In this document: positions 3,001 through 55,560 of the stretch, piece after piece
How the letters are laid out: every line of letters starts with the position of its first letter
How positions within the stretch are numbered: position 1 is the stretch's first letter
Source of the DNA: Blasia pusilla
Lineage: Eukaryota
NCBI GenBank assembly: GCA_050084515.1
Contig: CM114271.1
Span: forward strand, 35,774,001 to 35,838,000
Reading direction: 5' to 3'
Length of the DNA stretch: 64,000 nucleotides
The notes under the pieces: model-generated
What the model saw: the letters and a program-made list of their open reading frames with translations, nothing else
Database searches by the model: none
Told to the model about the DNA's origin: nothing
Made by a program: the position numbers and the translations under genes

Positions 3001-4445
3001 TCACGGCACGGTACTCGATCGTCGTTGAGCGGCTACCAATCACAACATAGCACAATGAAATGAAAACTCAAACACCATAACCCGAGGTCACCTACCATCA
3101 TTGGTTGATGACAAAACTGTGATGACGGTGGCAGCCAAAACAAAGTACGTGGTGGCGGTGCAAGTTTGAGAATCAACGGTCGTCGTGGAAGACCTTCCAC
3201 TCTGTTTGGCAACCAAGGGTGGACCACGGCTTAACCCGGCTCTAAGCAGCACTAGGCGGTAGAGGCGGCTGACGGTGGACTGCAAACCATTGATGGTGAT
3301 GGTTGACCTTTGATGGTGATGGTGACGGTTGACCTTCAATGGTGGATAGATGACGGCGGCGGCGTGGCGGCTGGTTTAGGGTTTGAACAATTTTACCCTA
3401 AAAATCGCCTAGCAATGGCAGTTTTGCAAGATTGAACATAACTTTTTGCTCGAAACTCCAAATTGCATATTGTTTATTGCACAGGGTGCATAGATTGACG
3501 ATCTATGATGGCGTTAAAAAATATTTTGAATCGGATATTTCAGTAAAAAATGACGGGGACTATTGTAAATCCCAACATCTCTTTCTCCTACACAAAATTT
3601 GGCAGCGCATCCGCGCTGATTTCTTCCAACAAAAATGTAAAACTTGTGAAACCACAAATCAATAAGCTATATGGTGCTCCCAAGAGCACTAGAATGGGGA
3701 AATTTGCTCCCATACTCAATCCCTATCAAAAATTGGGCAGCGCTTCCACGCGCCACTCTTCCACACGAAAAAATCGGCAAAGGAAACATAAAAAATGAGC
3801 GGCTCCGGCTCCGATAAGCACTCCCATGAACCACTAAATGGGGAAGAAGATCCCTAATGTGCAAAACCATTTAGTGACCAGCGAGCTTCCCCATGAAGCT
3901 CTCTCACTCATCTCATTCTCTCTTTGTAAATCAAGATCCAATCTCTCTCAACACCATAGCTCTCAAATGTGTGTACTCTCACATGTCTCTCTCAATGTAA
4001 AACCAAACCCACTCTCCTAATGAAAGACTTGGGTTACACACACAAGGCAAGCAAGACCATAGCTCTGCCGCCGCCTCATGCCAAGAGGTTCAACAAAGAG
4101 AGAATGAGCTCTCAAACTCTCTCTTCTTGAGGTAAATCCCTCCCCTCTCCCAAGCTCTCTCCATGGTAACCTATGCTCCCAAGTCACCTCCTTGGCTCGT
4201 GACCTGATGTAGGAGGTCAAGGGCCACTTACCAAAACTATAAAATCAACCATATACTCAAAATGGTACTTACCTAAAATTGTAAGTTTCTCAATATTGCT
4301 CCAAATGAGTCGAAACGAAGGGAAAATCTGCTCTCTCAGGTTTCCCGGGGCCTTAGCAGATCATCCTCGACCTCCTGAGCATGTCCTCCACTACTCGTGA
4401 AGGCGCTCTACTAGATCTCATCGATCTATTCTAAAAGACGTGACA
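1..4445 (-). mobile_element. Ty3/gypsy-like split-repeat retrotransposon, copy 1 (5' part: A repeat, leader, gag, protease; runs off the left window edge)
   Basis: Minus strand begins TGTCACGTCTTTTAG at 4445. Colinear with 42440-48126. Gag fragments (IELHDFFAEFRSWC; zinc knuckle CWLCGGAHHPHDC ~1270-1315) and protease-like RVLLDS*AQPLMLG ~150-195. Contains stops and frameshifts. Confidence 0.9.
3925..4445 (-). repeat. A repeat (5' terminal repeat) of copy 1
   Basis: Highly similar to 47608-48126 and 39254-39748; ends ...AAAAGACGTGACA on +. Confidence 0.85.
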
Positions 4446-16510: not shown

Positions 16511-16529
16511 AGAGGGTTAGTGGTATGTT

Positions 16530-32428: not shown

Positions 32429-33701
32429 TATCGTATAATAAAATTAGCTAGAGTGTTAATTCATTCCTCATTAAGTGTTAGATAGAGTTTTATTAGTATT
32501 CAGTAAATTAGCTTAGGAAAAGGAAATTTCCATGTTTAAACCTCTTTATGGTGTATGTTTTACGCGGGCCCAACTTTAGGAAAAGATGTAATAAATAAAC
32601 GATGACTTTATAAAAGTAAAGTAATGAGGTTGGTGATTTAATGAAAAGAAAAAGTAGTGTTGGTTTGTGGCTAGGTTAGTTGGGATAATTTGGAAAATAT
32701 CATGTGGGTAAAAAAGGATATTTTGGAAAAGATAAGAGGAAATCTACTTGTGTCAAAATATGATTGGCTAAGCTTTGAAATGAAGTCATGTGGCACAAGA
32801 TAAGATTAGTTCTATTTCGTACTCTTGTGGATCCCTTGTGAGTACATAAAGAAGAGGACCTTCAAGGGTTCATCACCTTCTATTTCACATCTTAAGTCTC
32901 TCGTGTCACTCTTGAGTGTATGGCTTTGGGATTGCTTGTTCTTCCAATGAGAGTGGATCACCCCTCTTGGGAGAGTAACTTGACCATGGTCTATTCTTGA
33001 AGAGGTTTCTAAAGTGTAGTGTATGTGAAGATGAGAGGCTTTTCACCTTGGAAGAGTTTAGTGATACTAAAATAAGGAATGTTTTGGCTTGTTATTTTCC
33101 CAATGAGAGTGGATTATTCTCTTGGAAAATAATTTTGCCAAAGCCCATTCTTGAGGAGAGTAGAGAATGTCTATCAAGCATGGATAGGGGTGGAGCACGA
33201 GTTGTGCCTGACTTTCTTTTCCTCAATCCTTACCATGTCAATGTACTTTTTGTAGATAAACATTGGTTCACTCGTCATTTAGTTTATCACTTTGGGGAGG
33301 CGTTCATGAACCAGGTCATGCAATCTCCAACTCCGGTGATTATTCCTATTGTCACATATGGAAGGACATGGGATTGTACTTTGTATGTCCTTATATAGCG
33401 ATCCATGGACGTCAATAGGCCTACTCTAGTAGGATTTAATAGTAGTTGTGCTATCTTTCTCGTATACAAGCGTAAAATATTTTATAGGGATTTTATGGAT
33501 AGGAATTCCGGGGTCCGATGTTACGAAGAAAAGTTCGCCTCGGCACTTCTATTTATGATACCTCTTGTGAGAGAATGGAGAGTATACATAATAATTTTGT
33601 ATTGAAAAATGAGAACTTCTTAGAGAGTTCACCTTGCATTGACCACGTCTGCCGCAGCTAGAAGGCTCACCCTTACTCGAAGAAAGGCTCTCGATACCAC
33701 A
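32429..33701 (+). mobile_element. ~1.27 kb solo-LTR-like unit, copy 1
   Basis: Colinear with 45378-46654; ends TATCGTATA...CGATACCACA; no recognisable coding region. Confidence 0.75.
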
Positions 33702-33989
33702 ACGGCCCTCCCGCACCCGAACCTTTCCTGTTCAAACACCGGCTATTGTCAAGGGAGGTATGAGGGCCAAAGGGGGGTACATGGTGGGATCAAGTATGAG
33801 TAGGGAAAGCTTGGGTGTGGGATGCATGTGCTTGGGCCCTGTTGCGCGCATACACATCGCTACAGAACATACATTATTGTTACCGAACACACACACAGAA
33901 ACACACACGATCCCATGCTAACTCATGACATCCAAACAACGAGACAAGAAGTACCAAAATATCTCTAAAATATGATCCAATCTCTCTTA

Positions 33990-36900
33990 TATTGAAGATT
34001 GAGTTACAGTCAAACTCATGAGACACCTGAACTGCTATATTTGGTACTCATACGAAGTAGGGAAGCTTAATCTTGGTTAAGTCAATTAAGCACGATTATC
34101 TTAACTAGGATTAGTTAATCACAATTAGTCTAACTCGAGATTATGGTTTAGGGTTGCTTGTACATACCCTATATAATTGAGAAGAGGATCAGCCTCCACT
34201 CATTCTCTCATTGCAAATTTTGTTCTCCATGATGGTGTGTGTGTGTGAGAGCCGTTTTCCACCAGTTATGCTTGTTTAGCAGTTTTCCATATGGTATCAG
34301 AACGGGAGAAGAACATCACTTGAAATTCTTGGTGTTTGAAGAGAGGCAAGAGAAGGAAAATTTTCATTTTGGGAGAAGGAAATTTGATTCAGAGCTCAGT
34401 GTGTGCAGATTTCAGGTGGAGCTTTGACGGTGATAAAACTTTGAAGGCGTTTTGTAGGGCTTTCCCGGTCAATTCAGCCGTCTGGGTCCGCTTTGGCTAG
34501 AACGACATTGATGACTAGTTGTAATTGTTTTATAGAGCTCGTCGAGAGCTTTTCAATGCATCCAAAATCGCTAGATTGTGACACTCTGAGCTCGTGCAGC
34601 AACAATTTCAGTATAGGAAAGTGCAATTAGTAAGAAAAGTTGTGCAGTTTGCTCTCTACATGCCAATTTCGACTAGTTCTTTCTAACAACTGATCAATTT
34701 TTGGCAAATTTCAGGTTGATTTCTATGTAGGAGTGGTCTATGCTTCAATTGGAGCAGTAGAAAGCCTGAAATTATGTTTTCTTGAGTGAAATCGTTTATC
34801 ATGGAGTATTCCTCATCAACTATCACAAACGAGAAGCTAGACAAGCAGAATTACAATATCTGGAAGTTTCGCATGAAACGATTTCTCATGGGTCAAGAAC
34901 TATGGGAGCTTGTCACAAGTGATGAGGCCAAGCCAAAAGGTGACTCAACAGACTTGAATGTTTACGCTTGGAACAAACGCGCAAGGCAAGTAATCCACTA
35001 CATTTCAATAACAATCAGTTCGCCAATCATAGGTCACATCCAAGATGTTGATATTCCGAAGGAGGCTTGGGATTCATTGGAAAAACTGTTCAAGACATCT
35101 ACAAAGGCTAGAAAGCTTCAATTGAAACAACAATTGAACGAAGTGAGGAAAGGATCGTAGAGCATCAATGATTATATTTTGACTATCAGACATATTTTTG
35201 ATCAGTTGAATAGCATTGGAGTGACAGTAGAAGATGATGATCTGATTTTATTCACTCTTCAAGGCCTTCCAAAGGATTACAAGTCCTTTGAGACCTCTAT
35301 CTCTGTGAGAGATAAGTATCCAACCTTTCAAGAGTTAGTTCCTTTGTTGATCAGTGAAGAGATGTGCCTAGTAGGCAGCGGTAGCTCGTCTAGTCTGCAA
35401 GAGAGTGCGCTATTTGCAGGTTATGGATCAAACACAGGCAGGGGTCGTGGCAAAAACTTACGCGATCGTAATGGATATCAAGCATATGGAGGAAGAGGCA
35501 CTCAATATAACATCATTCAATCAACTACGAACCAATACGAGACACAATCACAAGGTGGTGATGGTGGAAGCCGTCGGGGTCAGCAGCAGAGGGTCCCTGG
35601 ATATTGCAATTACTGTGGGATAAAGTATCACTATGCAAAGTTTTGCTTCAAGAAGAAGACAAAACAAGAGCCTTACAGCAACAAAACTATGTGAACCAAC
35701 AATACCAAGAGCAATACCAAGAACAACAACATTCACAAACGGAGCATCTCTTGGTCATGACTCATCATATGGGAGCAATGGTCAAGAAAGACTCGACAGC
35801 AGATTGGTACATTGACTGCGGTGCATCAAAAAACATGATCTCACAAGCGAAATGGTTCAGTAGTTTTGAGTCGGTGAAAGATCCTGCAATTATGCTCACA
35901 GGAGATGACACTCAACATCATATCACGCATATCGGTAAAGTTCAATAACATCATATGGTCTTTATGCTCTTGGAAATGTTCTCTATATTCCTACCATTGC
36001 AAGAAATTTGATCTCTGTAGGACAAATAGTAGAACACGGTTATCAAGTGAAGTTTAACGCATATAGTTGTTTCATTGAAAAAATGGATGACCAAACTACG
36101 ATAGCCAAAGGAACTAGATTTGGCAGAATGTTCAAATTAGATGTTTCTGTGCGAAAGATTCAAACAACAATGTATGGTCAAACCGGCCAACAAGTCACAA
36201 ATCTAAATGTGTGGCATAAAAGAATTGGACATTTGAATCTTCAAAGATTACAGAGTTTTTCATCATCTAATATAGTAATAGGACTCCCTAAATTAGCGAG
36301 TCCTACTACATTAGAGGTATGTCTTGCTTGCCAATTTGGAAAACAAGCTAGATTTCCTTTTCCAAAGCAAGGTAGAAGAGCATCCAAGATATTTGAGTTA
36401 ATCCACAGTGATGTGTGGACAACATCACAACATAGCCTTAAGTGGTTGCCAGTACTTTGTTTCATTAATTGATAACTTCTCTAGGTATATATGGATATAC
36501 TTTCTGAAAGCCAAGTTGGAGGTATTCTCAATATTCCAAACATTCCGAGTTCTAGTAGAGAAGCAGACTGAACAACACATTTTGAAATTGCATTGAGATG
36601 GAGGAGGAAAGTATCTTTCAACAGAGTTTGATGATTATTTATGTTAGAATGGCATCCAACGTCAAGTGACTTGTCGTTACACTCCACAACAAAATGGAGT
36701 GGCTGAGAGGAAGAATCGATATATTTCTGAAGCGGCACGAGCTATGCTGAATGAGAAGAACATGCCTAAGGTGTACTGGGTAGAGGCTGTAGCATGTGCA
36801 GTCTTCTTAATCAACCGAACTCCAACAACAAGAGTTCATGATAAAACTCCATTCGAAGTGTTCACATGAAGTAAACCTGAATTTTCCTTCTTGAAAGTAT

Positions 36901-39248
36901 TTGGCTATATTTTTTATGCTCATGTTCCTTCTGACAGACGTCAGAAATTAGACCCCAAGTCTGAAAGATGTATCTTCATTGGCTATGCTGATGGAACTAA
37001 GGGATATAAGTGCTACATTCCATCTTCTAGGAAGCTTATTATTAGTCAGGATGTTGTTTTGATGAGCTAAAGTCATGGTATGCTCCATCTGAGCCTATTC
37101 CACCTCTAAACTTGTTTGTTGAGGGGAAGAATATGACTATAAACCAACAGACATTGTCTTCAACTTCCCCAAGTACTAGTGCAAGATTAAGAGAGGTCCT
37201 AGATTTATCATTTAAATTTGTGAGTCCATGGACGGGAAGAGTACATATTCAGTCTGTTGACACTAGTCACAGCTCGAATTAGGTGTCAAAGGCATCTACC
37301 TCTGAACAACAACTTTGTAGATCAAGTAGAGTTACACATATAGTTCATAGAATTCATAAATAAAGGTTTCCTTGCGACACATCATGCATTTATGATGACT
37401 ATCTTTCAAGAGCAAGAGCCGAGTTTTTTTGAAGAAGCTACGAGTAAAGTCGAATGGATTGAAGCTATGGAGGAAGAGCTTGCTACATTAAGACATCAAC
37501 AAACATGGGAGCTGGTTGACATACCTTCCGTTAAGGAAGCTATTGGTTGCAAATGGTTTTACAAAATCAAGATGGTACAATTAACAGATAGAAAACGAGA
37601 TTGGTGGCTAAGGGCTATGCACAACAATATGGTATCGATTATGAGGAAACATTTAGCTCTGTTGCAAAGATGGCAACTACGAGAACAGTGGTTGCAATTG
37701 CAGTAAGTAAGAAGTAGAGATTACATCATATGGACGTCAAGAATGCCTTCTTGAATGGAGATCTATACGAGGAGGTATATATGACTCAACCACTTGGATA
37801 CAAGCATCCCAAGTTTCCATTTTGCGTATGCAGGTTGAAGAAAGCTCTATATGGGCTCAAACAAGCTCCAAGAGCTTGATATGGCAAGATTACATACGTC
37901 CTACAAGAGTTGGGTTTTAGGGTATGTGATTCTGACTCCTCGTTATATGTCTTGAGAGGACGAGATCATACAGTTCTTATTGTGTTGTATGTTGATGATC
38001 TCTTGATTACTGGGAGTACTGAAGAAATGGTACAATAAGTCAAGCTTAAGTTACAAGCAGAATTTGATATGAAGGACTTGGGAGAACTCAACTACTTCCT
38101 TGGTTTTGAATTTATCAAGGTTGGAGAGAGCATGTGGTTACTACAATGACAATATGCTCTTCATATGCTTTCAAAATATTGTATGAGGACTTGTAAGCCA
38201 ATCTCTACATCGTTGGACCAGAGCGTGAAGTTAAGAGTGGATGAAGGAGAGTTGCTTTTAGATTCTAATATGTATAGTTGGAAGTTTGATCTATCTAACT
38301 ATAAACAGACCAGATTTGAGCTATGCTATTGGCCTAGTGAGCCATTTTTGCAAGCACCTCGAAAACCTCACCTTGATGCTGTGAGGAGGATGATGCGTTA
38401 TGTGAAATTCTCTATTCAATTCGGGCTTCAATTTGAACCTTCTCCGAGTTTTCAATCACAAGGATTCACAGATGCTAATTGGGCAGGAAGCGTGTCTGAT
38501 CGACACTCCACATCTAGTTATTCATTTACTTTGGGAAGCGTAGCTATAAGTTGGACTTCAAAGAAGCAACCTACAGTTGCTTTATCTTCAACAGAGGCTG
38601 AGTACAGAGGAGCAACCAATACAGCATATGAGGCGGTGTGGCTTCATTGATTACTTGTTGAGATGGATGTTAGTAACTTAGGACCAAGTGTAATATATGC
38701 AGAAAATATAAGTAGCATCAAGCTTGGTAATAACCCTGTGTTTCATGCTCGTACAAAGCATGTTGAGGTGAACTATCATTTTATCAGAGAGAAAGTGCTT
38801 GTAGGAGAAATTGATCTTGTGTATATAGGAACAGATCAGCAAATTGCTGACATCTTTACAAAGGCATTGTCTACATATAAGTTTGAGATGTTTAGAAAGA
38901 ATTTAGGCGTTAGAGATATAGATATGAACTTGAGGGGGAGTATTGAAGATTGAGTTACAATGAAGCTCATGAGATACCTGAACTGCTACATTTGGTACTC
39001 ACACGAAGTAGGGAAGCTTAATTTTGGTTAGTCAGTTAAGCACGATTGTCTTAACTAGAGTTAGTTAATCACAGATTAGTCTAACTCGAGACTATGGTTT
39101 AGGGTTAGGGTTTCTCGTACATACCCTATATAATTGAGAAGAGGACCAACCTCCACTCATTCTATCATTGCAAATTTTGTTCTCCATGATGGTGTGTGTG
39201 TGAGAGAGCCGTTTTCCACGAGTTATGCTTGTTTAGCAGTTTTCCACA
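33990..39248 (+). mobile_element. Ty1/copia LTR retrotransposon, full length but decayed, inserted in the A2 repeat of copy 2
   Basis: LTRs 33990-34291 and 38941-39248; PBS TGGTATCAGA 34292-34301; PPT GAGGGGGAG ending 38940; 5-bp TSD TCTTA (33985-33989 / 39249-39253). Confidence 0.96.
34801..38953 (+). pseudogene. copia gag-pol (gag, protease, integrase, RT, RNase H), disrupted
   Basis: NYNIWKFRM; CNYCGIKYHYAKFC; WYIDCGAS; WHKRIGH...CLACQFGK; TPQQNGVAERKNR; LYVDDL ~37985; DANWAG; ALSSTEAEY; HARTKHVEV; ADIFTKAL. Many stops. Confidence 0.95.
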
Positions 39249-40042
39249 TCTTACAACAACATAATTCTCACATATGTGCACTCTCACATATCTCTCTCAA
39301 TGTCAAACCAAACCCACTCTCCTAATGAGAGGCTTGGGTTACACACACAAGGCAAGCAAGACCATAGCTCCGTCACCTTATGCCAAGATGTTCAACAAAG
39401 AGAGAATGAGCTCTCAAGCTCTCTCTCTCCTTGAGGTATATCCCTCCCCTCTCCCAAACTCTCTCCATGGTAACCTATGCTCCCAAGTCACCTCCTTGGC
39501 TCTTGACCTAATGTAGGAGGTAAAGGGCCACTTTATAAAAATAGAAAGTCGATCATATACTCAAAATTGTACTTATCTAAAATAGTAAGTTTCTCAATAT
39601 GGCTCCAAATGAGCCGAAACGAAAGGAAAACCTATTCTCTCAAGTTTCCTGGAGCTTCAGCAGTCATCCTCGACCTACTGATCCTGTCCTCCACTACTCA
39701 CAAAGTTGCTCTACTAGATGTCACCGATCTATCCTAAAAGACGTGATAGTTGTGGTGTGCATACACATCGCTACACGACATATATACATCGCTATCATCG
39801 ATCACACACACAAACACATACGATACCATGCTAACTCATTGCATCCAAACAACTATCACCCTCCTAGATGGTGGTTAGGTCCTTCTAACTGCAGATAGCC
39901 ATCTATCCCCACTTACCATGACATATATCTCTCGGACGCTAAGAGCAAGAAGGTCGGATGCTCATGAGGCCCCATCGTTAGTCGCTTTCTTGTCATCCAT
40001 GTCACAAACACAAGTCAGAATGTAGAACTACCTAATCTATGT

Positions 40043-40177
40043 ACATCTGGGACACATCCATCGTCCCTGAGGAACCCTAGTGAGAGGTGGTATAAAACAT
40101 GCCATATGCCATCCTCTCGAACACCCATCACATAGTAGCATAGTGGTTGCACCATGGGCGAAACCACACAACACACA
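40043..40177 (-). pseudogene. PHD finger at the integrase C-terminus (copy 2)
   Basis: Manual translation CVLCGFAHGATTMLLCDGCSRGWHMACFIPPLTRVPQGRWMCPRC gives a complete C4-H-C3 pattern. Confidence 0.93.
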
Positions 40178-40186
40178 CCGCAAGCC

Positions 40187-41331
40187 TCAAGCAACTATTG
40201 CTAAGCTTGGATCAACTGTACCGTCAATCTTTGGAACATGACATGGCGCACAGTTACGTACATGATGCTTCCAAACCATACTATCACGTCCCTCGAATAA
40301 GAGAACACCGGATGGCAAAACCTCACGCACTCTCAAGATGGTGCGCCCTATAGTCACATCCAACGTCGTGGATGCCGTCTGCTGCAAGTAGACATAGTCT
40401 TTTTTATGAAACCTTGGGATATTAGATCGATAACCACCTCCCTGAATAGTCGCATACCTTCACCTATCCCGATGTTGCGCAATCGCCAAGTTCTCAAACG
40501 CCATGGGCATCACTCTCCGAAACAACTTAGCCCTCTGAGAACATGCTCGCATCCATACATCAGGGTCGTCAAGGTTCAATACCTCACCAACATCTCGACA
40601 AATGGACGTAGGTAAATCGGGCTCTCGGCCATAAAACAACAAGAACGGTGAGAAAGACGTTAAGGATGCCTGCCTACTGAATCTGTATTCCATCTCCAAC
40701 CACGGTAATTGAAGGTCCCAATCTCCTAGGTGACCTCTCTGCAAGCCATACTTGCGTAGTCCTCTCTTCACCATGTGCACAACCCGCTCTGGTAGTCCAT
40801 CTCCCCCAGGATGATCTCGCGAAGTAGTGCGGTCGTTGATCAGTGCCAGATCACACAAGGCCTGAAACTTCCCGCGGAACTGTGTACTCTGGTCTGTCAA
40901 CACCTCAACTAGTGCACCGTAATGACTAAGCACTTGATCTAAAAAGGCATACGCTCCTCCCTCACTCGCTTTGTCAAGAAATGCTACCAACTCTATCCAC
41001 TTCGAGAAGTGCTCGACCATCACCAACACATAATGACTATGGCGCTCTGTCAAAGGCAAACGTCCTGCAAAATCCAAATTCCATCCATAACCTAAACCCA
41101 TGATTGGAAGTGGATGCAACTGTGGAGTCAGAGCATTGAACGATGCTCGGACTCGATCACACACCATACATATGGCAACAAACTGATGAACGTCAGTCTG
41201 CATGCCTCGCCACCAATATTGAATCTGGAGCAAGTTGTACGTCTGCTTCACTCCAAAATGAACTAACTCCTCGTGGGCATCACGTACCAAACGTGCTATC
41301 TGCGAAGGATGACGTGCCTCACTGCCTGTGA
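40187..41331 (-). pseudogene. gypsy-type DDE integrase (copy 2)
   Basis: H-x4-H...CMVC zinc motif, LDFAG, VLTDQ, DGLPER. Confidence 0.93.
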
Positions 41332-41985
41332 TCAACAGCCCGCATCCAATATAGAACCCACCAATAAATCGGAGGGACGCTCCACTCTTGCATGAGCCTT
41401 CCGTAAAACCTCATGTGGTACCAAGTTGGTCCACCAAAGATGCGGGCGGTGTGCTCTAGAACCTACACTCGCCGTATCTAACAACACTGCCGGGCCGATC
41501 CATGCGCGTACTTGATGTGCACTCGTCACCACGCGGGACCTTGAATCGCCCAAAATCGGCACATTCTCCAAAATGTATGTTGGAGAAATAGGCTGATGCT
41601 CATGTAAATGTTTGCAAGATCCGCATCATCTCCCAAAACAACTTGGACCGAGAGTCAGCTAATCTGCTACCCCGTCTAGCACTCGATAGGCCCTGACAGG
41701 GCCAACCAGCAATGACCAAGTCTATGGTCCCTACCCGCTCCAAGTCCTACGCCCCCAACAATGAAATGTCCCTCAGTGGGGAACTCTAGTAACCCTAAAT
41801 GGCGGACGCAGAAAACAAGTCGGGAATACGTAGGCGTAACAACGCCACATGGTAAAGTAAAGCGCGCCTTGCAACATCATCAATCTCCACATACAAGTAT
41901 TGTTGCACAGCCACTCCAACCTGCAAAATAGCAGCTAACCCAATGTTAATCCCTCCAAAGAGATCCAACACCCGAATATCCTTCT
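41332..41985 (-). pseudogene. C5 cytosine methyltransferase domain, motifs I-VIII (copy 2; C-terminus deleted)
   Basis: IRVLDLFGGINIGL, YVEIDD, DLVIAGWPCQG (~41690-41722), ENV, LDTASVGSRAHRPHLWWTN. Confidence 0.92.
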
Positions 41986-42439
41986 CTATGATGCACCACA
42001 CAATCGGGGTGGTGTCCAAAGGGGTCATAGCAGCACTCATGCCTACCTAGGGTTCCTCTGACCCGTTACACTCTAGTGCAAACGTCTCGCTCCACGCGAT
42101 CTACACATGCTCAGTGGCTAAGCGTCAAAACTCCTCAGTCAAGCCCAAAGCGGCATCTCTCCTCCATGGACTGATGCGGCTATCAGGACATTCCTCTCCA
42201 TAGAAATGTCAGGAACGGGAGTATCCTCTACATGGACATGTCTCTCAATCAAATCACAAGGCCAAGTGATGGCACTGCTAAATGCTGCTTAGGTTGCCAT
42301 CTCTCCTAGCCGTCGCTCGATCACTGCACCTGTGAATCAAACAAGTAATGAGCTAAGGTGCCCATGACCTGATTGCCATCCTGGTCTGTAGGACGCTGAC
42401 TCCTCCCAGTAATCCAGGGAAAACTCTATCGGGTATAAC

Positions 42440-44555
42440 AGTGCTCCACCAACAAAGACGTGGTAGGACTCTGCATCAGTCACTATCGCCTTGGCTGCAC
42501 CACGGACTCATCTATAGGATGTCCCGAGAGAATCCTCACCACGACCTCCTATCGGGTAATATACTGTGTGGTACTTGCTCCACCCAAGGATGTCTGTATC
42601 CAGAATGGACAACGTGCCACATCGGCTCTCGTCAAGCCCAATCTTTTGAATGACGCTTTTCCCAGCATCAGGGGTTGCGCTCCTAAATCCAACAAGACGC
42701 GTTGCGGACTAAAAGCTCTACCTCTTGGACTCACCAACTAGAAGACCTCTCCCCGGTTATCTATTAAAACAACACCAAAATAATCCATGGCACGCTCTAT
42801 CGGGGGTCTAGCGGGCATCTCCGCCATCCTACCAGCCGCAGCCTGCCATGAATCTGACATGGACAGCCCGAGTATTAGCTCCAAGGACATGTCCATCACC
42901 TTCTCTGCAATCACCTGTGAACGTGACGCAGGAACTCCAACTCCAAACTCACATAGCGTACCGGCCAGCTGAAAAACCTCGACGGGCGTACTTCCCAACG
43001 TCATAACATCGAAAGAAAAAAATAAAGGAGCGCGGTACATAACGGTGGCCGCCCCCAACAACGTGCTCGACACATGCCCCTCATGAGCATGAGCAATAGG
43101 AGTTGTCGCACTTGTTTCTCCCATTGCCCTCCGTGCGTGCACACCAATAACATCACCAACTCTCCGGGAACTCTGATCAGGACCCATCAATAGGTTCCTC
43201 ATCACCTCAAACAACGTGAAAGACTGAGGAACCTCAATGCCATAGCGGAAATCTGCTCCTATAGCTGCTGTATCTAAGCAACAATCCCAACCTCACGCCC
43301 AACGTCTCTCTCGACGCGTCTAGGTGGTGGGACTCTACCTCCTCCACGGGAAATTCCAATTCGGGCAACTCCAGTTCCTTGTCTCCCAACGGGACCACCT
43401 GCTCCACGATCTCTAGGCCCACCAGGACCGGCTACTCGCTCTGGTGCCCTCTTTGGCCCTCGGTCCAGACGTAACTCGAGGATGTAAACTGAAATACCTC
43501 ATGCATGTGTGACCATACCTCTCATAAAAGTCACACTGATAACCTCCTGGTGCAGCACCATCTCCTCTACCATGCTCAGGCACACGTCCATGACCCTGAT
43601 GAGTGCAATCGCGTTGATGATGGACTCCACCACATGACCAACAAGTAATCATAGGCGGCTCCTACTGAGCTGCATATGAAGAGGCAGGTCTCTATGGCAC
43701 GGCCTCCCGGTATCCTCTCTGAGCTTGTGGTGCCACAGTCAACCTATCTTGGAGTCCACGTTGTTGCACTAGTGATGCAGACAATCGTGACTGCTCTCAC
43801 CCATAACCCATGGTGGCTACGCTCTCCTCCATCATATTGCACTCAATGTTCTCGGCGGTCCTAAAAAAATCCCTCAAGGTAGGGGAGGTGTTCATAAGAA
43901 GCACTCCCTCCCGCACCCATGTCCGTAGGGTCCGATCCAGCATTGCGTACCCTTACTGGATAGTTTGAACCTCTGTCACCCCCTGAGTGACGTTGATCAA
44001 CCGGCACAAGTGAGTGTAAGCCTCACGCAAACTCTCACTCGGGCGCCTCTGGAAGTTGTGGATGCTCCGCAACTTCTCCATCCGTACCCCCTGGTAGCTC
44101 ACCCTCAACTCAGCGAAGAACTCAACCATGGGGTTGAACTTGGGACGAACCTGACTAGACGGTGCAACTGCTCCAATGCGAGTGACCCCTCCTAAAACAT
44201 CAATAGTGGAAGAGGAAGTAGCCTCTCCTGACTCCTCCTCCTCATCTGGGAATGGCTCTGTCCATGACACATAGTGTGGATCATAGTAGAGTCGCCATGC
44301 CTCAATCTCCTGGGCATATCTGTGGGAGAATTCATGGTAATTGTCCATGGGCATCCCCTCTAAATGCTGGAACATACCATTCCATATTGTAAACGGGTAG
44401 AAATCTCCAGAGTTCCTAGCCTCCTGTGAGTCACACCAACTCCTAAACTTTGCAATGAAGTCGTATAGCTCTATAGTGCCAACAGCACCCGAAAACCTAC
44501 ACGGTCCTCTATCCCGGTCGTCCATCTCGTACGCCCAACTGGTAGGATGACTCAA
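42440..44555 (-). pseudogene. gag and aspartic protease region (copy 2)
   Basis: IELYDFIAKFRSWC; zinc knuckles CWSCGGVHHQRDC and CDFYERYGHTC; RVLLDLGAQPLMLG. Confidence 0.85.
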
Positions 44556-45377
44556 TGTGTACGATGGATCACTAACACACTACTCTAGACACTACCCCTC
44601 GTTTGAAGACGACACAGAAGCAGATTGAGGTGGTCTCTTACGTGGACACCCTTGAAACCTCGCACCCCTCTGGGTAAACCCTCTAGAGCTACTCTCAGGT
44701 CCACAACCTTGCCTCTCAAAATCTCGAAAGAACGCCATGATGGCCCTTGTGCCCCTCTCACACAATCACTCTCAATCTCACAAGTAATCCCTCAATCACT
44801 AAAACTAAACATGCGGCACTCAATCTACACTCTCTCACTAAGTCGTGTGGTATACGGCAACAAGCAGCGCAATCCGGAAAATCAAGTGATCTATCGTCTC
44901 ATCGACATCCCACACACGTCTATGTCCCCTAAACCCATACATCATCGATGCTCTTAGCATCAACACGAAACCCAATATCCCAAATAACTTCCCAATATCC
45001 AGAAATCCCTCACACGTGCAAGATAAGGGACTACAATGGATAACCTCACAATAATGTCAATGTCGCTCCTCGATAACTGCAAATCTCGACCCCAACTCGA
45101 TCGTGAAGATAACTCCTCCAATTAGCAAGTCGTACTCCTCTCGTATTGACGTTGCTCAAAACTCCTCAATGTGCGGTGCAGGTTCAGCGGTCCGGTACGG
45201 CACTGGTGGCACAAAACGGCTACAAACGACATGATACTCGGGAATGGTGTGCGGCACTCGGCAGCATATCCTCCTCAATCAGAAATTCACACGCTCTGCT
45301 CCTTAGTAAAGGAGCGGCTCCCCGATCCGAACGGTGCGGTGAGGCCACAAGCGGCACGGTGCGGCGATCGGCGGCGC

Positions 45378-46654
45378 TATGGTATAGTAAAATCAGCCAA
45401 TGTGTAAACTCCTTTCTGGTTAAGTATTAGCTAGAGTTTTATTAGTATTAAGTAAATTAGTTTAGGAAAAGAAAATTCTCATGTTTAAACGTCTTTATGG
45501 TGCCTCTTTTATGCGGGCCCAACTTTAGGAAAAGAGGTAATAAATAAAAGATGACTTTATAAAAGTAAAGTAGTGAGGTTGGTGATTTAATGAAAAGAAA
45601 AAGTAGGTTTGGTTGGTGGCTAGGTTAGTTGGGATAATTTGGAAAATATCAAGTGGGTAAAAGATGATATTTTAGAAGATATAAGAGGAAATCTACTTGT
45701 GTCAAAATATGATTGGCTAAGCCTTGAAAGGAAGCCATATGGCACAAGATAAGTTTAACTCTATTTCGTACTCTTATGGATCTCTTGTGAGTATATAAAG
45801 AGGAGGGACCTTCAAGGGTTCATCACCTTCTATTCCACATTTTGAGTCTTTCATGTCACTCTTGAGTGTATGGCTTTGGGATTGCTTGCTCTTCCAATGA
45901 GAGTGGATCACCCCTCTTGGGAGAGTAGCTTGACCATGGTCTATTCTTCGAGAGATTTCTAGAGTGTGATGTGTGTGTGGAGATGAGTGGTTTGTCACCT
46001 TAGAGGAGTGTAGTCATACTAAAATAATGAATGTTTTGGCTTGTTACTTTCCCAATGAGAGTGGATTACCCTTCTTGGGAGAATAACTCTGCCAAAATCC
46101 ATTCTTGAGGAGAGTAGAGAATGTCTATCAAACATGGATAGGGGTGGAGCACGAATTGTGCCCGACTTTCCTTTCCTCAATCCATACCATGTCAAATATT
46201 CTTTGTAGATAGGCACTGGTTCACTCGCTATTTAGTTTATCACTTTGGGGAGGCGTTCATGAACCAGGTCATTCAATCTCCAACTCCCGTGATCTTTCTT
46301 ATCGTCACATATGGAAGGAGATGGGATTGTACTTTGTATGTTCTTATATAACAATCCATGGACGTCAATAGGCCTGCTCGAGTAGGATTTAACACTAGTT
46401 ATGCTATCTTCCTCGTGTACAAGCGTAAAGTAGTTTATAGGGATTTTATAGTAAGGAATTTCAGGGTCCGATGTTACGAAGAAGTGATCGCCTCGGCACT
46501 TCCATTTGTGATACATGTTGTGAGAGAATGGAGAGTATACATAATAGTCTTGTATTGAAAAAGGAGAACTTCTTAAAGAGTTTACCTTGCATCGACCACG
46601 TCTGCTACAACTAGAAGGCTTGCCCTTACTCGAAGAAAGGCTCTCGACACAACA
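45378..46654 (+). mobile_element. ~1.27 kb solo-LTR-like unit, copy 2, inserted in the leader of gypsy copy 2
   Basis: Absent from the homologous site in copy 1 (~2984, GGCGGCGCGTT). Ends TATGGTATAG...CGACACAACA; flanks GCGC / ACAC. Confidence 0.8.
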
Positions 46655-46944
46655 ACACGTTGCGGCTACGGGCGTCACGGCACGGCACTCGATCGTCATC
46701 AAGCGGCTACCAATCACAACATAGCAACATGAAATGAAAACTCAAACATCATAACCCGAGGTCACGTGCCATCATTGGTTGATGACGAAACTCCAATGAC
46801 GGTGGTGGCCAAACCAAAGTACGTGATGGCGGCGCAAGTCAGAGAATCAGCGGTTGTCGTGGAAGACCCTCCACTCCGTAATGGCGGAAATGGCAACCAA
46901 GGGTGGACAACGACTGAACGCGGCGCTAGGCGGTGGACGATGGA

Positions 46945-47050
46945 AGGTGGACCGTTGACGATGACGGTTGACCGTTGATGATGACGGTTGACCGTTGATG
47001 ATGACGGTTGACCGTTGATGATGATGGTTGACCATTGACGATGATGGTGA
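46945..47050. repeat. 21-bp tandem repeat (GATGACGGTTGACCGTTGATG-like), ~4-5 units, in the element leader
   Basis: Direct reading; fewer, more degenerate units at ~3270-3340. Confidence 0.85.
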
Positions 47051-48217
47051 TGATTGAACGTCGACGGTTGAAGATGACTATGACGACGATCGCCTAGCAA
47101 TGGCAATTTTGCAAGATTGATCATAACTTTTTGTTCGTAACTTTACATTGCACATTGTTTGTTGCAAAGCGTGCACAGCTTCACGATCTACAACGGCATC
47201 AAAAAATATTTTGAATCAAATATTCTAGTAAAAACAAACGGGGACTATCGTAAAGCCCAATGTTTCTCCGACATAAAATTCGGCAACGCTTCCGCGCTGA
47301 TTTCTCCCAACAAAAATGTAAAACCTGTGAGAACACAAATTAGTAAGCTACATGGTGCTCCCAAGAGCACCAGCATGGAAAAATCCGCCCCCATACTCAA
47401 TTCCTATCGAAAATTGGGCAACGCTTCCGCGTGCCACTCTCCCGTACAAAAAATCAGCAAAGCAAAGCAGCAAACTTGCAAGGCTCTTGCTCCAGTGAGC
47501 ACTCCCATGAGCCATGAAGCGGGGAACACGGTCCCCCAACCTGCACCAAACATCGAGCAACCAACGAGCTCTCCATGAAGCTCTCTCACTCACTTATTCT
47601 CTCGTTGTAAAATATGATCCAATCTCTCTCACAACACCATAGTTCTCACATGTGTGCACTCTCACATATCTCTCTCATTGTCAAACCAAACCCACTCTCC
47701 TAATGAGAGGTTTGGGTTACACACACAAGGTAAGCAAGGCCATAGCTCCGTCGCCTCATGCCAAGATGTTCAACAAAGAGAGAATGAGCTCTCAAACTCT
47801 CTCTCCTTGAGGTATACCCCTCCCCTCTCCCAAGCTCTCTCCATGGTAACCTATGCTCCCAAGTTACCTCCTTGGCTCTTGACTTGATGTAGGAGGTCAA
47901 GGGCCACTTACCAAAAATAGAAAGTCGATCATATACTCAAAATGGTACTTATCTAAAATAGTAAGTTCCTCAATATGGCTCCAAACGAACCGAAACGAAA
48001 GGGAAAGCGTGCTCTCTCAGGTTTCTCGAGGCTTCGGTGGGTCATCTCCGACCTACTGAGCTTGTCCTCCACTACTCACAAAGGCGCTCTACTAGATCTC
48101 ACCGATCTATCCTAAAAGACATGACAGCCCACATGAAGATGTCCGTTGCTAGGACGGACATTATTCTACCAACATAGACTTTTTCCATGTGTAACCTTGC
48201 CAATATATCGTTGACAT

Positions 48218-48400
48218 CAAGGTTGCAGGGAAACGCACATGTCCACAAAGATGTTACTCAAGTACCCACGGCCCGCATCCCAGCCCGTTGAGCCCATAGC
48301 GAGCACCCGGGCTGGCCGAGCTTGCACCGGTTTTGTGGCCCTCGTGCAATCCACGACCAACCCGGGAAGGGCCTCCGTTAGGGGAGCAAGCCTGTCCGAA
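48218..48400. mobile_element. Truncated hAT-type MITE (left end only)
   Basis: CAAGGTTGCAGGGAAACGCACATGTCC at 48218; no right TIR seen; right boundary approximate. Confidence 0.55.
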
Positions 48401-53784: not shown

Positions 53785-55377
53785 TGTCACATCTGAGTAG
53801 CCGATAGGCCGAGATCTATCGTGGACAGGGTGTAGGAGCCAACAGACTATCTTGAGTGTAACTTCGTCCCACGGTGTCGGATGAGGTTGAGGATAGGTCC
53901 ATTGTGTTAGGAACGTTGTTTCTGACAACCTTCATGTTGAGGTCTTTCACAGCCGGGTGGCTTGTTGACCAGGTCATCCACCCCTGGTAACCTGTGCGTG
54001 CAGGTTACCAAGGGGAGGGCTATTTTTAGGGGAAGAGCCTTTTGGCTCTTCCCAACCCTATATAAGAGAGGAAGGTGGCTTTCCTAAGCCATCTTTCTCA
54101 TGTTGGGTCGTTGGAGCACCTCTCTTGTATGTGTGTGAGATATGACTAGGATGCTAGCGTCCGGATTCCTTGATAGCGTAGGGCGGACGAGGCTCGATAT
54201 GCCGATGTAAATTGAGGAGTGGAGTTTTAGGCCGGGTGTGCCGTTTTTACTACTCTTTATTTTTACATGAGAAAGATGTTAGGGGGCTGGTGGAAATTCG
54301 TTGTTTGCAGGTAGGCAAGCGAATTGCTTTGGTCGGGAGCCCCTGGAGACGTGTGTGTTGCGGGTGTTGGTCATTTTCCTGTTCGAAAGGCCGTGGGCGG
54401 AAGCGCTGTCCATTTTTCTCAAAGTTTGCTGGTGCACATGGATTGAGGACAGTGGCAGAGTGTAGTACGGAGTGGGATGGCGACTTTATTGTTGAGAGTA
54501 GCGAGAGTGTCAAGAAAGAGCATGAAGGAAAGGTTGTAGAGGCAGAGGCGGCCAGGGTGCAGAGGCGTTTAGGTCACAGAGGTGCGGAGGTGTTTAGGTC
54601 ACATTTAGGTTGGAGAGGCGGCCGGCTGCAGAGTCGCACAGTGTGGGAGGCGCGCATAGGGCTGCGCGCCCCCCACAAAAATAAAGAGTAGTAAAAACCG
54701 AACACCCGGCCTAAAACTCCACTCCTCAATCTACATTGGCATATTGAGCCTCGTCCGCCCTGCGCTATCAAGAAATTCGGACGCTAGCATCCTAGTCCTA
54801 TCTCACACACATATAAGAGAGGTGCTCCAACAGCCCAACATGAGAAAGATGGCTTAGGAAAGCCACCTTCCTCTCTTATATAGGGCTGGGAAGAGCAAAA
54901 AGGCTCTTCTTCTAAAAATAGCCCTCCCCTTGATAACCTGCGCGCACAGGTTACCAGGGGCGGATGGCTTGGTCAACAAGTCACCCGGCTGTGAAAGACC
55001 TCAACATGAAAGTTTTCTGAAACAACATTCCTGACACAATGGACCTATTCTCAACCTCATCCGACACGGTGGGACAAAGTTACATTCAAGATAGTCCGCT
55101 CGCTCCTACGCCCTATCCACGATAGATCTCGGCCTATCGGCTACTCAGATGTGACAGCTGTCGTGCGCATACCTATCGCTACACAACATACATCGCTAGT
55201 CACATCTACACCACACAACACTGATCTTCCTCACACACGGGTCGATCCACACATGTACAAAATCAACTCACACATATACATGGAGATCACACAACCGCCC
55301 CCCTAGCTGGCAGTAGGATCCCCCCAACTCCAAATAGAAAAAATCACATCTCTCTGACATGACCTACTACCCTATAC

Positions 55378-55512
55378 ACATCTCGGACACATCCATCATC
55401 TTGTGGGAACCACATCAAGAGGGGGGGTCAGACATGACATATGCCACCCTCGAGAACAACCATCACATACCAACCTGGTGGCTGCACCCCTCGCAGATCC
55501 GCACAACATACA
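55378..55512 (-). pseudogene. PHD finger at the integrase C-terminus (copy 3)
   Basis: CMLCGSARGAATRLVCDGCSRGWHMSCLTPPLDVVPTR*WMCPRC. Confidence 0.92.
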
Positions 55513-55560
55513 CCTCAAGCCTGCAGGTAACCACTGCCAAGCTCGGATCCACCATCCCAT

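What the first reader, a model, noticed from the sequence alone, without database searches (positions are those of the whole stretch)
33840..48126. Split direct repeats (A1-ORFs-B1.A2-B2) instead of LTRs in a DDE-integrase element
Seen on the coding strand: A1 (48126-47608), ORFs, B1 (39853-39751), A2 (39748-33968, copia-interrupted), a 27-bp spacer, then B2 (33940-33840). The whole unit is bounded by TG...CA and a GCCC duplication. The ends are independently confirmed because removing the unit restores the host MITE (compare GGGCCCGCACGGACATGTCCGT at ~30521). No TGG-type tRNA PBS follows A1. Known: this layout is typical of tyrosine-recombinase PAT/Ngaro/TOC1-type elements, not of gypsy. Inference: it is exactly what a 2-LTR circle with LTR = B+A would give if opened at a site inside the LTR. 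Such elements would be missed or mis-bounded by standard LTR finders.
Basis: partly seen in the sequence, partly recalled or inferred. Interest (0 to 1): 0.9.

Follow-up and report, generated by a model that had tools for sequence, protein, structure and literature searches.

The report
Integrase retrotransposon with permuted split repeats
This is an old, damaged copy of a very abundant bryophyte-type gypsy-like retrotransposon that carries a DNA methyltransferase gene and whose end repeats are always arranged A–genes–B·A–B instead of as two equal LTRs, a layout already noted once in print for a green alga but never explained.

Summary
A1/A2 are 90% alike over 503 bp and B1/B2 are 80% alike over 105 bp. 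The ends are TG…CA, with a 4-bp duplication, a copia insertion in A2 and a 27-bp spacer.

It is not an artefact.
- A second copy in the window starts at the same base with a different flank.
- About 1,370 raw reads per run carry the same A-end/spacer/B-start joint, and A-start flanks are heterogeneous.
- Related metagenome elements show the same layout with 4-bp duplications.

- The element carries a C5 DNA methyltransferase and a PHD finger.
- This copy has lost RT/RNase H.
- It holds an unrelated 1.28-kb insertion.
- A polypurine tract abuts B1 and a self-complementary primer site abuts A1. The reverse-transcription unit is therefore B-NN-A, and B1-NN-A2 is a palindromic copy of the two joined ends.

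No tyrosine recombinase was found.

Prior art exists. The Fig. 4c legend of de Mendoza 2018 (PMC5890265) describes a Klebsormidium Gypsy-Dnmt3 element with DIRS-like repeats.

Verdict: a new member of a known kind. How the A-spacer-B joint is made remains open.

The parts
48127..48130 (.). Target-site duplication, upstream copy (GGGC on the element's strand)
   Evidence: Read directly. It matches 33836-33839.
47608..48126 (-). A1, the 5' terminal repeat. It starts TGTCATG.
   Evidence: 90.3% identical to A2. Copy 2 in the window starts at the same base. 1195 and 1302 reads have unrelated flanks at 48126.
47773..47788 (-). Segment inside A1 that is complementary to the sequence right after A. 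It is the candidate 5' end of the transcript (self-primer).
   Evidence: A 16-nt perfect complement in window copy 2, with 0 of 300 shuffles reaching it. It has decayed to 8 nt in this copy.
47593..47608 (-). Primer-binding-type site abutting the end of A1 (self-priming type, not tRNA type)
   Evidence: The same feature occurs in two other families (14 and 17 nt).
46943..47062 (-). 20-bp tandem repeat in the leader
   Evidence: family D7.
45377..46657 (.). Unrelated 1.28-kb repeat inserted in the leader. It is not part of the element.
   Evidence: Absent from copy 2. Reads skip 45376->46658: 43 reads in X13 and 55 in X14. A second copy lies at 32429-33703.
43416..44579 (-). gag-like ORFs with a CCHC knuckle (no Pfam family matched)
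   Evidence: Translation. No significant Pfam hit.
42552..42737 (-). Aspartic-protease-like remnant (weak)
   Evidence: Asp_protease_2, E = 0.054, below the cut-off.
41335..42046 (-). C5 cytosine DNA methyltransferase remnant, frameshifted. The Pfam match lies at about 41609-41785.
   Evidence: PF00145, 33.4 bits against a cut-off of 22. Homologous to 59131-59745 of the related element.
41319..41407 (-). Site of the RT/RNase H deletion in this copy
   Evidence: These 89 bp stand where the related element has 2473 bp (56658-59130), including RVT_1. 1042 reads of X13 diverge at 41280.
40463..41410 (-). DDE integrase (zinc-binding H2C2 domain plus catalytic core)
   Evidence: Integrase_H2C2 E = 9.9e-15. 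rve E = 2.2e-6, 28.3 bits, which is under the 32.6 cut-off.
40043..40177 (-). PHD finger downstream of the integrase, in the same reading frame of the read-through translation
   Evidence: PF00628, 37.3 bits. Also present in L028 and P0068.
39854..39865 (-). Polypurine tract abutting B1
   Evidence: Read directly. The same position is occupied in the two other families.
39751..39853 (-). B1
   Evidence: 80% identical to B2.
39749..39750 (-). Two nucleotides between the B1 end (...ACA) and the A2 start (T[G>A]TCA). This is the image of the two joined termini.
   Evidence: The joint is ...GACA-NN-TGTCA in 6 of 6 related loci and in the second window family.
39249..39748 (-). A2, first ~500 nt
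33990..39248 (+). copia-type LTR retrotransposon inserted in A2. It is not part of the element.
   Evidence: Repeats 91% identical. copia gag domains. 5-bp duplication TCTTA.
33968..33989 (-). A2, last ~20 nt
33941..33967 (-). Spacer between A2 and B2. It is family-wide and heritable, and is 28 nt long in the reads.
   Evidence: 1368 and 1371 loose read ends at 39853 carry it, with agreement 0.92. Joints 39853->47608 have 28 letters between. It has no other match in the window.
33840..33940 (-). B2, the 3' terminal repeat. It ends ...AACA.
33836..33839 (.). Target-site duplication, downstream copy
1..4445 (-). Second copy of the same family. Its 5' part is present and the rest is cut off by the window start. 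A lies at 3927-4445.
   Evidence: 82-88% identity to 42510-48126, without the 1.28-kb insertion. It starts TGTCACG after an unrelated flank.
54678..55308 (-). 3' part of a related family with the same anatomy: polypurine tract 55295-55308, B1 55159-55294, GC 55157-55158, and A2 from 55156 downwards
   Evidence: Its internal genes at 55372-61483 include the methyltransferase, RT and integrase.

Best explanation
WHAT IT IS (shown). The feature is a decayed, non-autonomous copy of a high-copy Ty3/gypsy-type retrotransposon family. Full-length relatives have the order gag, protease, C5 DNA methyltransferase, RT, RNase H, DDE integrase, PHD finger. Integrated copies always read:

4-bp duplication | A1 | primer site ... 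genes ... polypurine tract | B1 | 2 nt | A2 | (spacer) | B2 | 4-bp duplication

The outer ends are TGTCA...ACA.

HOW IT WORKS (inferred).
- The polypurine tract abuts B1 and a self-complementary (Tf1-like) primer site abuts A1. The unit that reverse transcription should duplicate is therefore B-NN-A, an ordinary LTR in that sense.
- The integrase does not use the outer ends of that LTR. It uses a short palindrome inside it (...GACA NN TGTC...), which is the image of the element's two integrated ends joined together.
- The inserted DNA is therefore a circular permutation of the canonical reverse-transcription product. It is a head-to-tail LTR pair (B-NN-A)(spacer)(B-NN-A) opened at the palindrome of the LTR next to the primer site.
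- The result is A - genes - B-NN-A - spacer - B. The internal B1-NN-A2 keeps an archive copy of both ends for the next round.
- Opening a form with a single LTR, or later B1/B2 recombination, gives the A-genes-B copies that also occur.
- A possible function of B2, which I did not test: it supplies a GT-rich 3'-end-formation element behind A2 that A1 lacks.

NOT SETTLED. How the A-spacer-B joint is produced is open. It looks inherited rather than made by end-joining.
For: Layout and ends:
- Searches give the repeats, the TG...CA ends and the duplication in the window.
- 4-bp duplications flank 4 of 4 elements with both ends visible: window GGGC, L028 AAGG, L049 CATA, L015 TACA.

Family-wide, not an artefact:
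- Window copy 2 starts at the same base with another flank.
- In about 1% of two raw WGS runs, 1368 and 1371 reads that end at the B start continue into the same spacer plus A end, with agreement 0.92.
- In the same runs, 1195 and 1302 reads at the A start continue into unrelated sequence, with agreement 0.35-0.36.
- In related metagenome loci, 0 of 10 distinct A copies upstream of the genes are preceded by B.
- There, 6 of 9 copies of polypurine-tract-plus-B1 are followed by NN-A2, and 5 of 5 A2 copies that can be judged run straight into B2.

The reverse-transcription unit is B-NN-A:
- A polypurine tract abuts B1 in three families.
- The sequence abutting A1 is complementary to a segment inside A. 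Perfect runs are 17 nt (L028, L041), 16 nt (window copy 2) and 14 nt (second window family). In each case 0 of 300 shuffles reach that length. The other 10 of 15 copies have 6-11 nt.
- A1 and A2, and B1 and B2, show no type-specific columns (10 A1 vs 6 A2; 8 B1-type vs 4 B2). L028 and L020 each share a rare variant between their own B1 and B2. This fits both repeats being copied from one template at each round.

Integrase type:
- Integrase_H2C2 and rve domains are present.
- No tyrosine recombinase at E <= 0.001 in the three forward frames of the L028 interior.

Precedent for integrase cutting a palindromic LTR-LTR junction:
- PMC1180852 and PMC1905944. I saw only the titles and the starts of the abstracts in a search listing.
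Against: 1. The spacer between A2 and B2 is conserved in this genome (agreement 0.92) and has variant forms in contigs of X1 and X4. It matches nothing else in the window. By my reading it resembles neither the primer site nor the polypurine region. A joint made afresh by ligation should not be heritable, and canonical reverse transcription does not copy anything 3' of A2.

2. A symmetric circle has two identical palindromes, so the mirror product (A-B-NN-A-genes-B) should be common. It is seen in 0 of 10 loci.

3. No extrachromosomal form, transcript end or integrase activity was observed. The primer site and the polypurine tract are assigned from sequence alone.

4. In this copy B1/B2 (80%) are more diverged than A1/A2 (90%). 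A 4-nt indel in B is carried by about half of all reads (1166 of 2252). This could mean that B1 and B2 are inherited separately in this family.
Confidence: 0.55

Rival explanations
1. DIRS-like templated restoration without a cut circle. The RNA runs from inside A1 to inside or beyond B2, so A2-spacer-B2 is copied from the parent. Template switches onto the internal B1-NN-A2 restore the missing outer parts of A1 and B2. The resulting linear DNA, with ragged ends just beyond the palindrome halves, is trimmed and inserted by the DDE integrase.
For: - It explains the heritable spacer.
- It explains the strict polarity, with 0 of 10 mirror forms.
- It explains why an internal joined-ends copy is kept. 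The equivalent internal region of DIRS-1 is experimentally essential (PMC7192593, passages read).
- The 4-nt indel in about half of the B reads would fit separate inheritance of B1 and B2.
Against: - It needs a minus-strand primer 3' of the spacer. No candidate was found, because B2 is followed by unrelated flanks.
- It leaves the conserved primer-type site after A1 and the polypurine tract before B1 without their usual roles.
- In the metagenome family there are no A1-specific or B1-specific columns.
Confidence: 0.3
2. A one-off product: tandem insertion, unequal recombination or mis-assembly of an ordinary element with two equal LTRs.
For: - The copy is old and damaged: 10% A1/A2 divergence, two foreign insertions and an RT deletion.
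- The region is full of nested repeats.
Against: - The same joints occur in more than a thousand raw reads per run.
- They also occur in L028 and L049, which are complete elements with their own 4-bp duplications.
- L011, L020 and L063 show the same 3' ends, and a second family in the window does too.
- No copy with B in front of the gene-proximal A was seen (0 of 10).
Confidence: 0.02
3. A tyrosine-recombinase (PAT/Ngaro/DIRS-type) element, or an element mobilised by such a recombinase supplied in trans.
For: The repeat layout is the one that defines PAT-like and Ngaro elements (PMC7192593).
Against: - No Phage_integrase-type domain was found in the forward frames of the window copy or of L028.
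- A DDE integrase is present in every relative examined.
- TG...CA ends with 4-bp duplications in 4 of 4 elements point to a staggered transposase-type cut. From my own recall, tyrosine-recombinase elements make no such duplication.
Confidence: 0.01

Closest known systems
KnitGypsy-Dnmt3 of Klebsormidium nitens (de Mendoza et al. 2018, PMC5890265; section 9 and the Fig. 4 legend read, figure not visible, supplements closed)
   Same: A Gypsy-type polyprotein with a C5 DNA methyltransferase inside pol. The legend states that the repeat structure is that of a DIRS element while the domains are those of Gypsy.
   Different: - The host here is most likely a bryophyte. The best named homologues are from Marchantia, Calypogeia and Sphagnum at 60-70% identity.
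- Kinship with the alga's elements was not tested.
- The parts of the paper I could read give no account of termini, duplications, primer sites, the palindrome or the mechanism.
PAT-like and Ngaro elements (DIRS order)
   Same: Split direct repeats A1 ... B1 A2 B2, with an internal joined copy of the ends. Some also carry a methyltransferase.
   Different: - Those use a tyrosine recombinase. They make no target duplication (recalled).
- Their methyltransferase is of the adenine (Dam-like) kind (PMC5890265).
- Here there is a DDE integrase, a 4-bp duplication, TG...CA ends, and a polypurine tract and primer site placed as in LTR elements.
Tf1/sushi-type self-priming chromoviruses, including the plant Tcn1 clade (Neumann et al. 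2019, PMC6317226; passages read)
   Same: There is no tRNA-type primer site. The sequence abutting the LTR is complementary to a segment inside the LTR. The Tcn1 clade is reported from mosses.
   Different: - Those have two equal LTRs.
- Chromoviruses by definition carry a chromodomain (recalled). Here there is a PHD finger and a methyltransferase instead.
- Phylogenetic placement was not tested.
Integrase cleavage of the palindromic LTR-LTR junction of retroviral 2-LTR circles (PMC1180852, PMC1905944; only titles and abstract starts seen)
   Same: A retroviral-type integrase cutting an internal palindrome made of two joined ends, which yields insertion-competent ends.
   Different: - In retroviruses the palindrome forms only on circularisation and the route is a side path.
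- Here the palindrome is built into every LTR unit and appears to be the only site used.

Membership tests
Ty3/gypsy LTR retrotransposon | pol with RT, RNase H and then a DDE integrase, preceded by gag and protease | tested here: met
   - The L028 interior has RVT_1, RT_RNaseH, Integrase_H2C2 and rve in that order.
- The related window element has RVT_1 and an integrase.
- The flagged copy itself lacks RT/RNase H through a deletion.
Ty3/gypsy LTR retrotransposon | Two equal long terminal repeats at the two ends | tested here: not met
   The 5' end has A only. The 3' end has B-NN-A-(spacer)-B. This holds in the window, in the reads and in related loci.
Ty3/gypsy LTR retrotransposon | TG...CA termini and a short target duplication | tested here: met
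   The ends are TGTCA...ACA. 4-bp duplications flank 4 of 4 elements with both ends visible.
Ty3/gypsy LTR retrotransposon | Primer-binding site next to the 5' repeat and a polypurine tract next to the 3' repeat | tested here: met
   A self-complementary site abuts A1. A polypurine tract abuts B1, not A2. These roles are inferred from sequence only.
DIRS order (PAT-like / Ngaro) | Tyrosine recombinase gene | tested here: not met
   No such domain was found in the three forward frames of the window copy interior (E <= 0.01) or of the L028 interior (E <= 0.001).
DIRS order (PAT-like / Ngaro) | Split direct repeats A1 ... B1 A2 B2 | tested here: met
DIRS order (PAT-like / Ngaro) | Insertion without a target-site duplication (recalled feature) | tested here: not met
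   4-bp duplications in 4 of 4 elements.
KnitGypsy-Dnmt3-like elements | C5 DNA methyltransferase domain inside a Gypsy pol | tested here: met
   PF00145 was found in the window copy, in L028, and in P0007, P0064 and P0068. The related window element (59851-58818) shows the methylase motifs by eye, is homologous to the PF00145-bearing stretch of the flagged copy, and its best database relatives carry PF00145. It was not itself scanned against Pfam.
KnitGypsy-Dnmt3-like elements | DIRS-like repeat structure with Gypsy domains | tested here: met
   As in the rows above. The published statement is in the Fig. 4c legend.
KnitGypsy-Dnmt3-like elements | Common descent with the Klebsormidium elements | not tested
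   - No Klebsormidium-named protein appeared among the 73 hits.
- No tree was built.
- Two domain orders exist among relatives: methyltransferase before RT (P0064, P0007, L028), or between RNase H and integrase (P0068).
Tf1/sushi - Tcn1 chromoviruses | Self-priming primer site | tested here: inconclusive
   Perfect complements of 14-17 nt in 5 of 15 copies from three families, with 0 of 300 shuffles reaching them. The rest have decayed. Priming itself was not shown.
Tf1/sushi - Tcn1 chromoviruses | Chromodomain at the integrase C-terminus | tested here: not met
   A PHD finger is found instead. No chromodomain hit.

The most novel reading that the evidence does not exclude
A lineage of integrase-bearing LTR retrotransposons, found in bryophyte-type sequences and perhaps allied to the Klebsormidium elements (kinship untested), never inserts the canonical linear reverse-transcription product. 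Its integrase recognises only a palindromic 'joined-ends' site built into each LTR. Every provirus is therefore a circular permutation of the cDNA, and a head-to-tail LTR intermediate (a circle or its equivalent) is obligatory. This would be a natural system in which the long-abandoned 'circle junction as integration substrate' route is the main route. It would also be a mechanistic bridge between LTR elements and DIRS-type or pararetrovirus-type replication.
Probability: 0.35. Interest if true: 0.8.

Novelty: new member of a known kind. Interest (0 to 1): 0.55.

Why it matters
- These elements are very abundant in the source organism. Read depth on the element is about 1,100-3,700, both directions summed, from about 1% of one run. 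Related sequences occur in Marchantia and other bryophyte assemblies.
- Tools that look for two equal LTRs are likely to place their boundaries wrongly. I infer this and did not test it. It would affect repeat annotation and LTR-based dating in these genomes.
- Biologically they are a natural test case for three questions: how a retroviral-type integrase chooses its ends, how an element restores its termini from an internal archive copy, and why a retrotransposon carries its own DNA methyltransferase.
- The anatomy worked out here turns a one-line remark in a figure legend into testable predictions. That anatomy is the palindromic joined-ends site, the polypurine tract before B, the self-complementary primer site after A, the 4-bp duplication and the heritable spacer.

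Tried and rejected
- Long-LTR reading (A plus leader plus the 1.28-kb repeat as a 2.7-kb LTR ending at 32429). Rejected. The 1.28-kb block is absent from copy 2, and reads skip it.
- The genome search 'own'. No genome is held for this window.
- The spacer as a copy of another part of the element. There is no second match in the window, and its best complement to A is only 8 nt. By eye it resembles neither the primer site nor the polypurine region, and it does not look like the 3' end of a typical tRNA. That last judgement rests on recall and was not tested against tRNA genes.
- L039 tandem 465-bp repeat as a possible B-A-B-A array. It is unrelated sequence with no palindrome or G-run.
- Several reverse-transcription schemes worked through on paper:
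  - an extra minus-strand switch from B1 to B2;
  - the RNA 3' tail acting as plus-strand primer;
  - homologous insertion of a one-LTR circle into a resident solo A-spacer-B;
  - insertion next to a resident unit.
  
  Each either predicts symmetric or mirror products that are not seen, or cannot create new insertion sites, or predicts 4 nt rather than 2 nt between B1 and A2.
- PDB sequence search with the 216-aa methyltransferase piece: 0 hits at E <= 0.001. The Dnmt3 assignment of the published family could therefore not be checked here.
- Cluster look-up of six relatives gave no organism names.
- Earlier notes of this scan held nothing on this genome or these sequences.
- Literature searches for liverwort or Marchantia Gypsy-DNMT elements and for 'KnitGypsy-Dnmt3' found only PMC5890265. 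Supplements were closed and figures are not held, so that paper may contain more on the repeat structure than I could see.


Full report
1. THE OBSERVATION

- A1/A2: 47627-48127 vs 39249-39749, 90.3% over 503 bp.
- B1/B2: 39751-39853 vs 33840-33940, 80.0% over 105 bp.
- A pair at 33990-34292 and 38941-39249, 91.0%. These are the repeats of an element that splits A2.

On the coding (minus) strand:
- A1 begins TGTCATG at 48126, after GGGC.
- B2 ends AACA at 33840, before GGGC.
- B1 ends at 39751, two bases follow, and A2 begins at 39748.
- After the insertion, the last ~20 nt of A2 (33989-33968) are followed by 27 nt and then B2.

The insertion is copia-type: copia gag and pre-integrase domains and a 5-bp duplication TCTTA.

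The 'restored MITE' argument is weaker than stated.
- The left flank is part of a repeat with three other copies in the window.
- The rejoined flanks align across the joint to the copy near 30.5 kb.
- The only BLAST piece spanning the joint is 35 bp at 80%, E = 0.005.

(a) A fourth repeat pair, 32429-33703 vs 45378-46656 (89%, 1280 bp), at first suggested a 2.7-kb LTR. It is a separate repeat inserted in the leader.
- A second copy of the element at window 1-4445 passes straight from the homologue of 45382 to that of 46658.
- Reads skip 45376->46658: 43 reads in X13 and 55 in X14.

(b) The interior holds these features:
- gag-like ORFs with a CCHC knuckle;
- a weak protease remnant;
- a C5 DNA methyltransferase remnant (PF00145, 33 bits);
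- Integrase_H2C2 plus rve;
- a PHD finger.

It has no RT or RNase H. A 74%-similar element at about 55.3-61.5 kb has 2473 bp, including RVT_1 (70 bits), where this copy has 89 bp. This copy is therefore a deletion derivative.

(c) The best named relatives of the methyltransferase are Marchantia polymorpha, Calypogeia fissa and Sphagnum proteins at 60-70% identity. Several of them also carry RT and RNase H domains.

3. ARTEFACT OR FAMILY ARCHITECTURE?

Three independent lines say family architecture.

(i) The second window copy starts at the same base (TGTCACG at 4445) after an unrelated flank.

(ii) Raw reads of the same organism were laid on 39700-48300 at 80% likeness (two WGS runs, about 1% of each read).
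- Depth is about 1,100-3,700 (both directions summed) over the genes and about 4,600 over A.
- At the B start, 1368 (X13) and 1371 (X14) reads leave the window's sequence and continue with one consensus, agreement 0.92. That consensus is the spacer plus the A end.
- 171 and 177 further reads were reported as joints 39853->47608. For 57 and 53 of these the output lists about 28 letters between the two sides.
- At the A start, 1195 and 1302 reads continue into sequence with agreement of only 0.35-0.36, which means many different flanks.

(iii) A scan of metagenome contigs with a methyltransferase alignment gave 80 loci. Searching them with the A and B of L028 gave:
- 10 distinct A copies upstream of the genes (L026 and L028 share a flank and are counted once). 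All begin TGTCATGACC, and 0 of 10 are preceded by B.
- 9 loci with polypurine tract plus B1. Of these, 6 continue NN-A2 (L003, L011, L020, L028, L049, L063) and 3 continue into unrelated DNA (L010, L012, L015).
- 5 of 5 A2 copies that can be judged run directly into B2 (L003 is cut by its contig end).
- L022/L027 and L036 are internally deleted variants and were left out of these counts.

Elements with both ends visible have 4-bp duplications: L028 AAGG, L049 CATA, L015 (form A-genes-B) TACA, and the window copy GGGC.

The L028 interior carries the methyltransferase, RVT_1, RNase H, integrase and PHD. It has no tyrosine recombinase at E <= 0.001 in three frames.

4. ANATOMY THAT BEARS ON MECHANISM

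The polypurine tract:
- A purine run abuts B1, not A2, in all three families.
  - Flagged family: 39865-39854.
  - Second window family: 55308-55295.
  - Metagenome family: a run of six G directly before B in 9 loci.

The primer-type site:
- The sequence that abuts the end of A1 is complementary to a segment inside A.
- Perfect runs are 17 nt (L028, L041), 16 nt (window copy 2) and 14 nt (A at 53785). In each, 0 of 300 shuffles reach that length.
- The other 10 of 15 copies show 6-11 nt, consistent with decay.
- This is the Tf1-type self-priming signature, which Neumann et al. predict for the moss-containing Tcn1 clade (PMC6317226, passages).

The B-NN-A unit:
- By the usual logic of reverse transcription, the duplicated unit is B-NN-A.
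- Inside that unit, B-end/NN/A-start reads ...GACA-GC-TGTCA... in 3 of the 6 metagenome joints. NN is AC in 2 and TC in 1. It is GC in the second window family and is decayed in the flagged copy.
- This is a palindrome, and it is exactly the two integrated termini joined with 2 nt between them.

Homogenisation of the repeats:
- A1 and A2, and B1 and B2, carry no type-specific columns.
- L028 and L020 each share a rare variant between their own B1 and B2.
- This fits both repeats being copied from one template at each round.

5. MOST LIKELY MECHANISM, AND ITS PROBLEMS

I infer that reverse transcription makes the canonical product with B-NN-A at both ends. The integrase then acts at the internal palindrome instead of the outer ends. 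What is inserted is a head-to-tail LTR pair opened at the LTR next to the primer site. This gives A-genes-B-NN-A-(spacer)-B. A one-LTR form, or later B1/B2 recombination, gives the A-genes-B copies.

Integrase cleavage of palindromic LTR-LTR junctions has retroviral precedent (PMC1180852, PMC1905944; listing only).

Two results do not fit a simple ligated circle.
- The spacer is conserved within the genome, has variant forms in contigs of X1 and X4 and matches nothing else in the window. It is absent in the metagenome family, and a different sequence follows A2 in the second window family. It looks inherited, yet canonical reverse transcription copies nothing 3' of A2.
- The mirror permutation expected from two equivalent palindromes is absent (0 of 10).

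A DIRS-like scheme explains both points. In it the RNA reaches into B2 and the internal joint restores the ends (PMC7192593). It lacks a visible 3' primer and leaves the primer site and polypurine tract without their usual roles.

My estimates are about 0.55 for the permuted-LTR reading and 0.30 for the templated rival. The step that makes A-spacer-B is unexplained.

6. COMPARISON AND NOVELTY

The closest published case is KnitGypsy-Dnmt3 of Klebsormidium nitens. Its Fig. 4c legend says that the repeats are as in DIRS and the domains as in Gypsy (PMC5890265; section 9 read; figure and supplements not seen).

My searches found no other paper on such elements, and none in liverworts or mosses:
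- 'KnitGypsy-Dnmt3';
- Marchantia + retrotransposon + DNMT3 + Gypsy;
- split direct repeats + integrase + LTR retrotransposon (with passages in 32, 33).

The element fails DIRS membership: it has no tyrosine recombinase and it makes a duplication. It also fails the 'two equal LTRs' criterion of gypsy, while meeting the other gypsy criteria. Kinship with the algal family and with Tcn1 was not tested.

Verdict: a real, family-wide architecture and a new member of a kind already noted in print, with new anatomical detail and an open mechanism.

Noticed in passing
window 45377-46657 and 32429-33703: A 1.28-kb repeat, 89% alike between the two copies. One copy sits inside the element's leader and the other 136 bp beyond its 3' end. 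It is high-copy in the reads. I saw no clear target duplication or terminal inverted repeat, and its ORFs match no Pfam family.
   Followed up: partly
window 52600-64000 and 16500-18900: A cluster of nested or rearranged fragments of a second, 65-75% similar methyltransferase-bearing family.
- It includes an intact-looking stretch of polypurine tract, B, GC, A at 55308-54678.
- An inverted A copy lies at 53785-54264.
- A B copy in the opposite orientation lies at 63580-63719.
- A2 is followed by a different, longer sequence. A 36-nt piece of it recurs 43 nt upstream of the B copy at 63580.
   Followed up: partly
window about 63545-63565 (+ strand): Two units of the plant telomere-type repeat (TTTAGGG) lie in the stretch just upstream of the B copy at 63580.
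   Followed up: no
window 39780-39784: A 4-nt indel in B is carried by about half of all reads (1166 of 2252 in X13). The window's own B1 has the 4 nt and its B2 lacks them. It could be a B1/B2-specific difference or a subfamily marker.
   Followed up: no
window 43230/43231: About 900-1100 reads per run diverge on both sides of this point, and window copy 2 has 167 extra bp here (731-897). The flagged copy therefore has a second internal deletion.
   Followed up: partly
proteins P0068 vs P0064, P0007; locus L028: Relatives show two domain orders. The methyltransferase lies before RT in P0064, P0007 and L028, and between RNase H and integrase in P0068. This suggests a rearrangement or two acquisitions.
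   Followed up: no
L047:1-3228 and 6557-9787: A 3.2-kb direct repeat at 99.9% identity lies next to a distant methyltransferase homologue. The structure is not understood.
   Followed up: no
window 46943-47062: A 20-bp minisatellite of about 5 units in the element's leader. Read depth is lower there.
   Followed up: no
L015, L010, L012: These copies end at B1 with no A2-B2, giving the form A-genes-B. L015 has a matching 4-bp duplication. They could be insertions of a one-LTR form or products of B1/B2 recombination.
   Followed up: partly
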